Shown in pieces: positions 29,898-30,860 of a stretch of 64,000 nucleotides of DNA; within the stretch, counting starts at the first letter, position 1, and the number at the start of each line of letters is the position of its first letter. A program made the translations under genes and the position numbers. The DNA is from a virus, in the IMG/VR virus record IMGVR_UViG_3300045988_122050, positions 74,589 through 138,588 of that record. The stretch is one strand, 5' to 3'. The notes beneath the pieces are model-generated. The model was not told the DNA's origin. It was given only the letters and a program-made list of their open reading frames with translations, and did not search any database.

Positions 29898-30860
29898 ATG
29901 AGACAGATTACAGACACACATACAGGAGAAATTATCTCCGATACAGATTTAACATTGGAATACTTATTTGTTGGTGATTATGGCAAGGAAAACAACATTA
30001 AGGCAGATTTTCTTGGGTATGATAAACGAATTGAAAAAGTTGAACATAAACCAGTTGATATTAGAGAAAAATTAGTTGTGACTGTTTCGTCACAGAAAGG
30101 TTGCCCGATGCATTGCAATTTCTGTGATTGCCCTAAACTTGGATTTAAAGGAAACGCATCGTTGCCAGAGTTAATGATGGAGATCACTTCTGGAATTGCT
30201 TTATCAGGAATCAGACATGGAGAACGATTAAATGTACATTATGCAAGAATGGGAGAGCCTACATTTAATCAAAATGTAATTGCTTCGGCTAAACAGATTG
30301 CACATATGTTAGCAGATCCAGACAGTGATATACATTTCAACACATATCATCCAGTAATTTCTACAATGATGCCAAAGGCAAATAATAATTTAAAAGAATT
30401 TTTACATAAATGGGTTAAAACTGGATTCGAATATGGTGGAGAAGATGGCTTTGGTCTTCAGTTCTCTATCAATACTCTTAATGAAGAACAAAGAAATGAA
30501 ATGTTTCGAGGATGTTCATTATCTTTAACAGAGATCGGAGGCATTATTGATTGGTTGCCAATGCCAAAGAAACGTAAGTATACATTGAATTTTGCTGTTA
30601 CATCCAAAAGTAATTTAGACGTAGATTTGATGAACAAGTATTTCGATAAGGAAAAATGCATTGTCAAGATTACTCCTATCCATGAAACAGTTGAAGCAGT
30701 TAACGAAGGATATGAGATCGTAACAGATTTTGACGTATATGAAAAATTTGAACAACCACTTGTAAAAGACGGTTGGGATGTAATTGTATTTGTTCCGTCG
30801 AAAGAAGAAGACACAGACAGAATTACATGTGGAAATTCATTAATTGCATTAGGAAATTAA
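29898..30860 (+). CDS. RlmN/Cfr-family radical-SAM methyltransferase (N-terminally shortened)
   Basis: VSSQKGCPMHCNFCDCP (CxxxCxxC, RlmN signature SSQxGC..C.FC), ARMGEPTFN (RlmN MGMGEPLLN), FSINTLNEEQRNE (ISLHAPNDEIRDE), CIVKITPIHE (CKINLIPWNP), DTDRITCGNSL (DIDAACGQL, second catalytic Cys). Confidence 0.75.
   Translation: MRQITDTHTGEIISDTDLTLEYLFVGDYGKENNIKADFLGYDKRIEKVEHKPVDIREKLVVTVSSQKGCPMHCNFCDCPKLGFKGNASLPELMMEITSGIALSGIRHGERLNVHYARMGEPTFNQNVIASAKQIAHMLADPDSDIHFNTYHPVISTMMPKANNNLKEFLHKWVKTGFEYGGEDGFGLQFSINTLNEEQRNEMFRGCSLSLTEIGGIIDWLPMPKKRKYTLNFAVTSKSNLDVDLMNKYFDKEKCIVKITPIHETVEAVNEGYEIVTDFDVYEKFEQPLVKDGWDVIVFVPSKEEDTDRITCGNSLIALGN

What the first reader, a model, noticed from the sequence alone, without database searches (positions are those of the whole stretch)
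29898..30860. Phage-encoded RlmN/Cfr-family radical-SAM methyltransferase
The ORF carries the full set of RlmN/Cfr signatures, including the second catalytic Cys near the C-terminus (motifs listed under the feature). It lacks about 40 residues of the N-terminal accessory domain. RlmN and Cfr methylate C2 and C8 of adenosine 2503 in 23S rRNA, and Cfr confers multidrug ribosome-antibiotic resistance. A homolog inside a phage accessory island is unusual. It could retarget rRNA or tRNA methylation during infection, spread a Cfr-like resistance determinant, or methylate adenine carbons in phage nucleic acid.
Basis: partly seen in the sequence, partly recalled or inferred. Interest (0 to 1): 0.8.

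Follow-up and report, generated by a model that had tools for sequence, protein, structure and literature searches.

The report
Phage RlmN-like enzyme missing one cysteine
A large gut phage carries a well-conserved radical-SAM enzyme that is built like the RNA methylases RlmN and Cfr, but it belongs to a separate, uncharacterised family that lacks one of the two catalytic cysteines those enzymes need, so it is very unlikely to be a Cfr-type antibiotic-resistance gene, and its real substrate (tRNA or a small nucleotide-like molecule) is still open.

Summary

It is not an RlmN or Cfr. It scores 35 bits against a 290-bit RlmN cutoff and 24 against 530 for Cfr. It forms a separate clade of 577 clusters at 50% identity and matches PHROG 24834 (unknown function). 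It has no counterpart of RlmN residues 1-100. It lacks the resolving cysteine: RlmN C118 aligns to T62, and none of 38 family members has Cys there. It keeps the methyl-carrier cysteine (C355 aligns to C311).

Relatives are fused to an ECF transporter S-component plus an MTA/SAH nucleosidase, or to isochorismatase-type hydrolases. In phages the gene moves alone. It recurs next to tRNA arrays and tRNA-repair genes (RlaP, CCA-adding enzyme, Thg1, PTH2) and next to NAD-salvage genes.

The best reading is a single-cysteine RlmN-like C-methylase with a non-ribosomal substrate: tRNA about 0.4, a small adenine- or pyridine-type metabolite about 0.3. My own queuine-lyase idea was refuted.

The parts
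29898..30860 (+). Radical-SAM ORF, 320 aa, RlmN/Cfr-like fold. Member of PHROG 24834 and of a 577-cluster family distinct from RlmN and Cfr.
29885..29894 (+). Shine-Dalgarno-like sequence GGAAGGAGAG. The AGGAG core at 29888-29892 lies 5 nt before the ATG.
   Evidence: Read directly from the sequence.
30102..30125 (+). Codons for C69-x3-C73-x2-C76, the [4Fe-4S] cluster ligands. They correspond to RlmN C125/C129/C132.
   Evidence: These positions are Cys in 37-38 of 38 family members.
30081..30083 (+). Codon for T62, which occupies the position of the resolving Cys of class A methylases (RlmN C118, Cfr C105). The Cys is absent here.
   Evidence: Alignments. 0 of 38 family members have Cys at this position; 4 of 4 RlmN/Cfr references do.
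30126..30128 (+). Codon for D77, a family-specific Asp directly after the third cluster Cys. It is Asp in 32 of 38 family members and Ser/Ala in RlmN/Cfr. It is a candidate substitute general base (inference only).
30252..30260 (+). Codons for G119-E120-P121, the SAM-binding GEP motif shared with RlmN (G179-E180-P181). It is preceded by family-specific R117, which is Gly in RlmN/Cfr.
30828..30830 (+). Codon for C311 in the TCGN motif. It corresponds to the methyl-carrying Cys of RlmN (C355) and Cfr (C338).
   Evidence: Cys in 33 of 38 family members.

Best explanation
The ORF encodes a stand-alone, single-cysteine relative of the class A radical-SAM methylases (RlmN/Cfr). Phages carry it as an autonomous accessory gene.

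**Shown**
- It has the radical-SAM cluster motif and the SAM-binding motifs.
- It has an RlmN-type core and a C-terminal tail bearing the conserved Cys (C311).
- It lacks RlmN's N-terminal domain and the resolving Cys.

**Inferred mechanism**
1. As in RlmN, a first SAM methylates C311, releasing SAH.
2. A second SAM is cleaved at the [4Fe-4S] cluster to the 5'-deoxyadenosyl radical.
3. That radical abstracts H from the S-methyl group.
4. The resulting thiomethylene radical adds to an sp2 carbon of an adenine-type ring.
5. The covalent adduct must then be resolved without Cys118, by another base (candidate: family-specific D77) or by a different route.

**Inferred substrate**
The substrate is not 23S rRNA A2503. 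For the phage clade I consider tRNA the most likely target. The enzyme would then be part of a phage tRNA-maintenance or counter-defence toolkit, alongside phage tRNA arrays, the CCA-adding enzyme, the RlaP nucleotidyltransferase, Thg1-like enzyme, PTH2 and Rnl1.
For: **Homology and fold**
- The family profile matches RlmN and Cfr over the whole core at E 1e-18 to 1e-20. hhalign probability against E. coli RlmN is 98.8%.
- C311 aligns with C355, and the cluster Cys residues align.

**Two-SAM methylase chemistry**
- Relatives at 36-41% identity are fused to, or followed by, an MTA/SAH nucleosidase. In P0142 this domain scores 224 bits against a 169 cutoff. The enzyme clears SAH and 5'-deoxyadenosine, the two by-products of class A chemistry.

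**Functional gene**
- dN/dS is 0.05-0.08 and there is a strong Shine-Dalgarno site.

**tRNA link**
- The rSAM, RlaP and CCA-adding enzyme are the only proteins shared between the flanks of L117 and L037 (rSAM 53% identical). The trio recurs in L112 with divergent alleles, and in L163.
- A Thg1-like gene lies 0.4-1.2 kb upstream in two independent lineages (88-89% group and L033).
- PTH2 abuts the rSAM and Rnl1 is 3 kb away in L010.
- tRNA genes lie within 500 bp in 6 of 61 lineages. In L134, 21 tRNAs end 113 nt upstream. In L165-170 an array starts about 70-80 nt downstream.
- The distant GenBank homolog in Stenotrophomonas phage BUCTxx99 lies inside a tRNA array.
- The window itself has RlaP 10.3 kb downstream and a tRNA-like element 2.8 kb downstream.
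- RlmN itself methylates tRNA A37 (annotation; PMC9692996).
Against: - The resolving Cys, described as indispensable for RlmN and Cfr, is absent from the whole family. Canonical class A turnover therefore cannot apply as such.
- RlmN's N-terminal domain (residues 1-100) is missing.
- The protein is acidic: pI 5.3, net charge -13, and -20 in the 89% homolog. RlmN and Cfr have pI 6.6-8.9.
- No fusion to any RNA-binding domain was seen. The fusions that exist are to an ECF transporter S-component and to isochorismatase-type hydrolases, which point to small molecules.
- About three quarters of phage lineages show no informative neighbour. 752 neighbour proteins fall into 459 clusters.
- NAD-salvage genes and DNA methylases recur about as often as tRNA genes. 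Part of the tRNA signal may therefore just reflect shared residence in accessory islands.
- No biochemical datum exists for any family member (literature searches).
Confidence: 0.4

Rival explanations
1. Small-molecule enzyme. The family C-methylates, or otherwise radically modifies, an imported or salvaged heteroaromatic metabolite such as an adenine- or pyridine-type base, nucleoside or nucleotide. The phage copy would be an auxiliary metabolic gene tied to NAD or nucleotide-cofactor restoration during infection.
For: - Four representatives in the same subclade as the window protein (36-41% identity) are fused to an ECF transporter S-component. It is QueT-like and passes the Pfam cutoff in P0133 and P0142.
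- Subclade B members are fused to isochorismatase-type hydrolases (P0235, P0259). They also sit in a conserved operon with such a hydrolase (23 of 40 loci) and a thioredoxin-reductase-like flavoprotein (22 of 40).
- In L017, L020, L025 and L060 the rSAM (55% identity) lies between a PncA-like nicotinamidase and NadE, next to PncB and an NrtR-like regulator.
- NAPRTase abuts the rSAM in L010. Nicotinamide phosphoribosyltransferase abuts the homolog in Vibrio phages. A PncA-like gene lies at +0.7 kb in the L158 group, and an NAD module at +3 to +6 kb in L110.
- The protein is acidic and has no RNA-binding domain.
- The pocket is remodelled and more polar: D77, R117, Q188, N231, K257 and T259.
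Against: - No C-methylated NAD-pathway metabolite is known that would need such an enzyme (my knowledge).
- The MtnN fusion is explained by by-product removal and says nothing about the substrate.
- In the window's own super-lineage the closest neighbours are tRNA-related (49 bp to 1 kb), while NAD genes are 2.9 kb or more away.
- The window has no NAD gene next to the rSAM.
- Only RNA substrates are known for the RlmN/Cfr fold.
Confidence: 0.3
2. One reading: a genuine RlmN or Cfr orthologue that methylates C2 or C8 of A2503 in 23S rRNA, and so possibly a mobile Cfr-like multidrug-resistance determinant.
For: - RlmN and Cfr are the best hits in NCBIfam, the PDB and the fold searches.
- JGI auto-annotates close homologs as '23S rRNA (adenine2503-C2)-methyltransferase'.
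- The C-terminal Cys is conserved.
Against: - Scores are far below the curated cutoffs: TIGR00048 35 against 290; CfrAB 24 against 530; TIGR04432 21 against 550.
- It forms a separate clade outside RlmN plus Cfr.
- The resolving Cys is absent (T62), and that residue is essential in both enzymes.
- The N-terminal 100 residues are absent.
- Identity to RlmN and Cfr structures is 16-17%.
Confidence: 0.04
3. A non-orthologous queuine lyase, or another queuosine-precursor enzyme. It would be the analogue of QueL and would convert salvaged queuine to preQ1 for tRNA modification. This would link the QueT-like fusions with the tRNA neighbourhoods.
For: - The fusion QueT-like S-component + radical-SAM + nucleosidase mirrors the C. 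difficile queK-qrtT-queL operon.
- The gut setting is one where queuosine salvage is common.
- A missing QueL function is noted in streptococci (PMC12632869).
Against: - The fused nucleosidase is a bona fide MtnN, not a QueK-type hydrolase.
- No preQ1 riboswitch lies upstream of the fusions.
- There is no tgt, queA, queC, queD, queE or queF within 2.17 Mb of loci plus the window.
Confidence: 0.04
4. A DNA-modifying enzyme. It would C-methylate adenine in phage DNA to evade restriction, by analogy with tRNA-modification homologs (Tgt/DpdA) that turned out to modify phage DNA.
For: - DNA methyltransferases are among the most recurrent neighbours. N6_N4_Mtase, Dam, D12 and C5 families all appear.
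- The gene sits in anti-defence-type islands. In the window, Tad2-like genes lie 7.5 kb downstream.
Against: - The protein is acidic and has no DNA-binding domain.
- The cellular homologs fused to membrane transporters or placed in metabolic operons make no sense for DNA.
- Orphan DNA methylases are very common phage accessory genes, so adjacency is expected by base rate.
- Two SAM per methyl group makes genome-wide modification costly (established class A stoichiometry).
Confidence: 0.07
5. Different chemistry on the same scaffold. Either it is a non-methylating radical enzyme that uses C311 as a hydrogen-atom donor, or it is a single-turnover protein that stays covalently attached to its target, as C118A RlmN does.
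For: - The resolving Cys is lost across the whole family while the carrier Cys is kept.
- C118A RlmN is isolated crosslinked to tRNA (PDB 5hr6/5hr7).
Against: - The family is large, old and under strong purifying selection, and it includes operon-embedded cellular members. That fits a turnover enzyme better than a suicide protein.
- The MtnN fusion fits SAH-producing methyl transfer.
Confidence: 0.1

Closest known systems
RlmN (dual-specificity 23S rRNA m2A2503 / tRNA m2A37 methyltransferase; class A radical-SAM methylase; TIGR00048; PDB 3rfa, 5hr6, 6fz6)
   Same: - The CxxxCxxC motif, the GEP motif and conserved E21/E105, S64/S120, N124/N184, R199/R242 are shared.
- The C-terminal CG(Q/N) motif carries the methyl-carrier Cys.
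- Phage neighbourhoods rich in tRNA genes fit RlmN's tRNA activity.
   Different: - Identity is 16-17%, and the score is 35 bits against a 290 cutoff.
- It forms a separate clade.
- RlmN residues 1-100 are absent.
- The resolving Cys118 is replaced by Thr.
- Family-specific pocket residues are D77, R117, Q188, N231-F232, K257 and T259.
- The window's subclade has a specific 25-residue insert (GDYGK...NIKADFLG).
- The protein is acidic.
Cfr (23S rRNA m8A2503 methyltransferase; PhLOPSA resistance; NF000424/TIGR04432; PDB 9p0p)
   Same: - Both are carried on mobile elements.
   Different: - The score is 21-24 bits against cutoffs of 530-550.
- It lies outside the Cfr clade.
- It lacks the equivalent of Cfr C105 and the N-terminal domain.
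- There is no evidence of any link to antibiotic resistance.
QueL, queuine lyase (radical-SAM; C. difficile CD1684, PDB 6p78)
   Same: Both are radical-SAM enzymes of gut microbes. The fusion QueT-like transporter + radical-SAM + nucleosidase in this family resembles the queK-qrtT-queL operon in outline.
   Different: - There is no queuosine gene or preQ1 riboswitch in any context examined.
PHROG 24834 and COG0820-like phage proteins (for example the radical-SAM protein of Bacteroides phage Versailles, B3FJU2 of Pseudomonas phage 201phi2-1, and hypothetical proteins of Vibrio, Salmonella, Pectobacterium and Yersinia phages)
   Same: - This is the family the ORF actually belongs to: PHROG E 3.4e-80, and 46.7% identity to the Versailles protein.
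- BFVD structural matches give TM 0.64-0.80.
   Different: None of these proteins has a known function. They are annotated 'unknown function', 'hypothetical protein' or 'radical SAM'.

Membership tests
Radical-SAM superfamily | A CxxxCxxC motif that ligates a [4Fe-4S] cluster, plus the partial TIM-barrel core with SAM-binding motifs | tested here: met
   C69/C73/C76 are conserved in 37-38 of 38 family members, along with the GEP motif. The fold matches only radical-SAM enzymes at high Z. The Pfam PF04055 score of 20.8 bits is below the 29.5 cutoff for this sequence, but homologs pass it.
Class A radical-SAM methylases (RlmN/Cfr) | Two conserved catalytic cysteines outside the cluster: the methyl carrier (RlmN C355) and the resolving Cys (RlmN C118, Cfr C105). 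The literature states that class A enzymes 'use two conserved cysteine residues' (PMC9692996). | tested here: not met
   The carrier Cys is present (C311; 33 of 38 family members). The resolving position is T62, never Cys in 38 of 38 members, and Cys in 4 of 4 RlmN/Cfr references.
Class A radical-SAM methylases (RlmN/Cfr) | RlmN-type architecture: N-terminal helical domain, additional beta strands, radical-SAM core and C-terminal tail | tested here: not met
   [not shown]
RlmN (TIGR00048, NF008396) | Score at or above the curated equivalog cutoff | tested here: not met
   35.4 bits against 290, and 28.4 against 633. Only residues 47-134 are matched.
Cfr (NF000424, TIGR04432, NF011024) | Score at or above the curated cutoff, and placement in the Cfr clade | tested here: not met
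   23.7 against 530, 21.3 against 550 and 21.8 against 468. In the tree it lies outside Cfr + Cfr(D).
RlmN/Cfr | Methylation of C2 or C8 of A2503 in 23S rRNA (and A37 of tRNA for RlmN); a resistance phenotype for Cfr | not testable with these tools
   This needs expression, nucleoside LC-MS and MIC assays.
QueL (queuine lyase) | Homology to CD1684 / PDB 6p78, and genomic linkage to queK, qrtT or a preQ1 riboswitch | tested here: not met
   [not shown]
PHROG 24834 (phage protein family of unknown function) | Significant full-length match to the family profile | tested here: met
   E 3.4e-80, 270.6 bits, residues 17-316 matched to profile positions 21-322 of 336.
Known anti-phage defence systems (PADLOC-DB) | Match to any defence-system protein model | tested here: not met
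   There are no hits at E up to 1e-3 for the rSAM or for 9 neighbouring ORFs.

The most novel reading that the evidence does not exclude
The family is a new mechanistic subclass of class A-type radical-SAM enzymes that works with a single cysteine. It keeps the methyl-carrier Cys and has replaced the 'indispensable' resolving Cys with another residue or route. Phages spread it as a one-gene tool that C-methylates adenines. The target would be either tRNA, protecting or restoring tRNAs attacked by host tRNA-targeting defences (working with RlaP, the CCA-adding enzyme and Thg1), or free adenine- or pyridine-type nucleotides. The second option would be the first small-molecule substrate for this fold.
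Probability: 0.3. Interest if true: 0.8.

Novelty: new variant of a known kind. Interest (0 to 1): 0.55.

Why it matters
**Practical point.** These genes are auto-annotated as '23S rRNA (adenine2503-C2)-methyltransferase', and a scan flagged this one as a possible phage-borne Cfr. The evidence says it should not be counted as a resistance determinant.

**Scientific point.** Class A radical-SAM methylases are defined by two cysteines and have so far comprised only RlmN and Cfr. This family is large (6904 proteins at 90% clustering, 577 clusters at 50%, 541 viral contigs) and strongly conserved. It keeps the scaffold and the carrier Cys but lacks the resolving Cys and the N-terminal domain. It is also fused to a transporter component, to an MTA/SAH nucleosidase or to amidohydrolases. 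Working out its reaction would test how essential the second cysteine really is. It could also reveal either a phage strategy for maintaining tRNA under attack or a new nucleotide-cofactor modification. The recurring rSAM-RlaP-CCA module gives a concrete, testable entry point.

Tried and rejected
2. **A fixed operon partner in the window.** DUF8224, phrog_2018, phrog_20092, PM0253 and SPFH are linked to the rSAM only in phages at 99% identity or more. By 89% identity all of them are gone.
3. **An SPFH/prohibitin link.** The annotation of the BUCTxx99 homolog as 'prohibitin family protein' suggested this. That label appears to be a mis-annotation, and Band_7 recurs in only 2 neighbour clusters.
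4. **Membership in a known defence system.** There are no PADLOC hits.
5. **NARP3.** This phage NAD system is PnuC + NadR and has no radical-SAM component.
6. **Identifying the fused S-component more precisely.** The PDB search and the large protein search were both uninformative.
7. **Near-identical DNA in GenBank phages.** None was found.
8. **AlphaFold-database fold search.** The library was unavailable.
9. **Literature.** Four searches for a characterised phage RlmN-like enzyme found nothing.
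Full report
**1. The observation**

An uninterrupted ORF lies at exactly 29898-30860 on the + strand and encodes 320 aa. An AGGAG Shine-Dalgarno core sits 5 nt upstream of the ATG. Its cysteines are C69, C73 and C76 (CPMHCNFC, the radical-SAM cluster motif), plus C78, C206, C254 and C311. The gene is under strong purifying selection. dN/dS is 0.05-0.08 against phage homologs of 80-89% protein identity, and all of those homologs are free of stop codons.

The window is a phage. 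Loci encoding the identical protein lie on IMG/VR viral contigs of 90-165 kb. The window encodes its own Pol III alpha, RecD2-like helicase, RecJ and Toprim primase. The rSAM sits in a long same-strand run of small accessory genes that includes Bro-N/ANT, an integrase, a PemK-like toxin and two Tad2-like genes.

**2. What family it is**

Curated profiles put RlmN and Cfr on top, but far below their thresholds.
- TIGR00048 (RlmN) scores 35.4 bits against a cutoff of 290 and matches only residues 47-134.
- CfrAB scores 23.7 bits against 530.
- Pfam Radical_SAM scores 20.8 bits against 29.5.

The protein belongs to PHROG 24834, a family of unknown function (E 3.4e-80). An exhaustive search of 1.84 billion representatives finds only 577 clusters at E up to 1e-3. 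The 90%-clustered collection holds 6904 relatives, some of which JGI auto-names as RlmN.

**3. Why it is not an RlmN or Cfr**

I fetched genuine E. coli RlmN, a Bacillus RlmN, Cfr and Cfr(D) and built an alignment and a neighbour-joining tree.
- The family is monophyletic and lies outside RlmN plus Cfr.
- The cluster cysteines align.
- RlmN C355, the methyl carrier, aligns with C311. This position is Cys in 33 of 38 family sequences, in a TCGN or CGQ motif.
- RlmN C118 (Cfr C105) aligns with T62. This position is never Cys in 38 of 38 family sequences, but it is Cys in all 4 references.

RlmN residues 1-100, including the N-terminal helical domain, have no counterpart. The family also carries its own conserved residues at core positions where RlmN and Cfr differ:

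| Family residue | RlmN/Cfr residue |
|---|---|
| D77 (directly after the third cluster Cys) | Ser/Ala |
| R117 | Gly |
| Q188 | Ala/Thr |
| N231-F232 | Glu/Ala-Tyr |
| K257 | Asn |
| T259 | Ile |

The window protein is acidic, with pI 5.3 and net charge -13. RlmN and Cfr have pI 6.6-8.9.

A Cfr-type resistance function is therefore very unlikely, and nothing supports A2503 as the target.

**4. A lead I followed and rejected**

Relatives at 36-41% identity are three-part fusions: a QueT-like ECF S-component, the radical-SAM domain and a PNP_UDP_1 domain. This resembles the C. difficile queuosine salvage operon queK-qrtT-queL.

The evidence went against it.
- The fused PNP domain is a bona fide MTA/SAH nucleosidase. 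In P0142, NF004079 scores 224 bits against a cutoff of 169, and TIGR01704 scores 173 against 74.
- No preQ1 riboswitch precedes the fusion genes.
- No tgt, queA, queC, queD, queE or queF occurs in 2.17 Mb of related loci plus the window.

The MtnN fusion, and a separate adjacent PNP gene in L176, are informative in a different way. MtnN removes SAH and 5'-deoxyadenosine. These are exactly the two by-products of the two-SAM class A mechanism.

**5. Genomic context**

*The window's own neighbours.* DUF8224, phrog_2018, phrog_20092, PM0253 and SPFH/flotillin accompany the rSAM only in phages at 99% identity or more. At 89% identity all of them have been replaced. Across 132 loci of the close clade, 752 neighbour proteins fall into 459 clusters. 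Among 145 cluster representatives, 84 Pfam families appear and none dominates. In phages the gene is therefore an autonomous cassette. No PADLOC defence model matches it or its neighbours.

*The distant bacterial and archaeal subclade* (27-35% identity). It has a fixed operon with an isochorismatase-type Cys hydrolase (23 of 40 loci) and a thioredoxin-reductase-like flavoprotein (22 of 40). rSAM-isochorismatase fusions also exist.

*The tRNA theme in the phage subclade.*
- tRNA genes lie within 500 bp of the rSAM in 6 of 61 lineages. In L134, 21 tRNAs end 113 nt upstream. In L165-170 an array begins about 70-80 nt downstream.
- An RlaP-type nucleotidyltransferase and a CCA-adding enzyme follow the rSAM in L115-117, in L112 (alleles only 53% and 34% identical to L117's), in L037 and in L163.
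- Between L117 and L037, these three proteins are the only ones shared in the flanks.
- A Thg1-like gene lies just upstream in the 88-89% group and, independently, in a Dysosmobacter prophage.
- PTH2 abuts the rSAM and Rnl1 lies 3 kb away in L010.
- The distant homolog in Stenotrophomonas phage BUCTxx99 lies inside a tRNA array.

*The NAD-salvage theme in the phage subclade.*
- The order PncB, PncA-like, rSAM, NadE, DUF5662, NrtR-like occurs in four loci.
- NAPRTase is adjacent in L010.
- Nicotinamide phosphoribosyltransferase is adjacent in Vibrio phages.
- PncA-like or complete NAD modules lie 0.7-7 kb away in other lineages.

About three quarters of lineages have no informative neighbour. 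Both themes are common contents of phage accessory islands, so neither is decisive.

**6. Best explanation and rivals**

I commit to a single-cysteine, RlmN-like radical-SAM C-methylase. C311 would be methylated by one SAM. The 5'-deoxyadenosyl radical from a second SAM would activate that methyl group for addition to an sp2 carbon of an adenine-type ring. The adduct would then be resolved without Cys118. Family-specific D77 is a candidate base, but this is inference only.

| Reading | Confidence | Main reasons |
|---|---|---|
| tRNA substrate | about 0.4 | In this protein's own super-lineage the nearest informative neighbours are tRNA genes and tRNA-repair enzymes at 49 bp to 1 kb. RlmN itself methylates tRNA A37. 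|
| Small heteroaromatic metabolite linked to NAD or nucleotide salvage | about 0.3 | Transporter and amidohydrolase fusions, conserved operons, the missing N-terminal domain, the acidic surface and the remodelled pocket. |
| Different chemistry or a covalent trap | 0.1 | The resolving Cys is lost across the whole family. |
| DNA modification | 0.07 | DNA methylases are recurrent neighbours. |
| True RlmN or Cfr | 0.04 | Top database hits only. |
| QueL analogue | 0.04 | Resemblance of the fusion outline only. |

**7. Novelty and score**

No paper in the library describes this family. It is a new variant of a known kind: the class A scaffold without the second cysteine and without the N-terminal domain.

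It is more interesting mechanistically. Interest: 0.55.

Noticed in passing
window 33621-33760 (+): There is a tRNA-like element (Rfam RF00005, 44.3 bits; ARAGORN misses it). Its acceptor, D and T arms are intact, but the anticodon stem GCAAT/ATTGC encloses a 73-nt AT-rich loop instead of a 7-nt loop. An intrinsic-terminator-like hairpin follows it. It is 95-97% conserved in the 13 closest phage relatives, and no uninterrupted copy was found. It could be an intron-bearing tRNA, a disrupted tRNA or a tRNA mimic. It lies 2.8 kb downstream of the rSAM.
   Followed up: partly
window 38374-38685 and 38694-38978 (+): Two tandem Tad2-like (PF11195) genes, a family of anti-Thoeris sponge proteins. A DHH/DHHA1 phosphoesterase follows at 38978-39931. 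Together they suggest a counter-defence island 7.5 kb downstream of the rSAM. The family assignment comes from precomputed Pfam hits on the sister contig L005, mapped to the window at 93-100% identity.
   Followed up: partly
window 41161-42084 (+): An RlaP-family nucleotidyltransferase (PF10127, 84 bits; an RNA-repair pathway family). In related phages its homolog sits directly next to the rSAM, together with a CCA-adding enzyme. In the window it is 10.3 kb away, and no CCA-adding enzyme was found in the window.
   Followed up: partly
window 26865-28934 and 28953-29342 (+); L003 5-1879 and 1922-2323: A DUF8224 protein (689 aa, PHROG 1735) and a PHROG 2018 protein (129 aa) form a pair. The pair is conserved between this gut phage and Salmonella phage Arash (37% and 34% identity). 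In Arash both are annotated 'structural protein', and they lie about 3 kb upstream of that phage's rSAM homolog.
   Followed up: no
L017, L020, L025, L060 (about 1000-7600 in each) and L110 (about +2.9 to +6.7 kb from the rSAM): A compact Preiss-Handler-type NAD module occurs on phage or phage-like contigs: PncB, a PncA-like nicotinamidase, NadE and DUF5662, with or without an NrtR-like regulator. It differs in composition from the published phage NAD reconstitution pathways NARP1, NARP2 and NARP3 (PMC13464706). DUF5662 travels with the module and has no known function.
   Followed up: partly
L165, L167-L170 (tRNA arrays at about 1900-16500): Phages whose rSAM is 57% identical to the window's carry arrays of 11-13 tRNAs. 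These include tRNAs that ARAGORN labels Pyl (CUA) and Stop, which are suppressor tRNAs. This suggests stop-codon recoding in these phages.
   Followed up: no
window 31280-32740 (+): A 486-aa SPFH/Band_7 protein with a flotillin-like C-terminal region lies two genes downstream of the rSAM. Another SPFH protein replaces it in a sister phage (L091). Stenotrophomonas phage BUCTxx99 annotates its rSAM homolog as 'prohibitin family protein', apparently in error, while a genuine prohibitin gene lies 4 kb away.
   Followed up: partly
window 19737-22373 (+): A tyrosine integrase (19737-20687), a calcineurin-like phosphoesterase (20684-21430) and a PemK/MazF-type toxin (about 21924-22373) lie in the middle of the accessory region of a phage of about 150 kb that has its own replisome.
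   Followed up: no
L176 5884-7068: In one bacterial contig, an ECF-S-rSAM fusion and its adjacent PNP-family gene are followed on the same strand by a PUA-domain SAM-dependent RNA methyltransferase of RlmI type. This is a single observation and may be coincidence.
   Followed up: no
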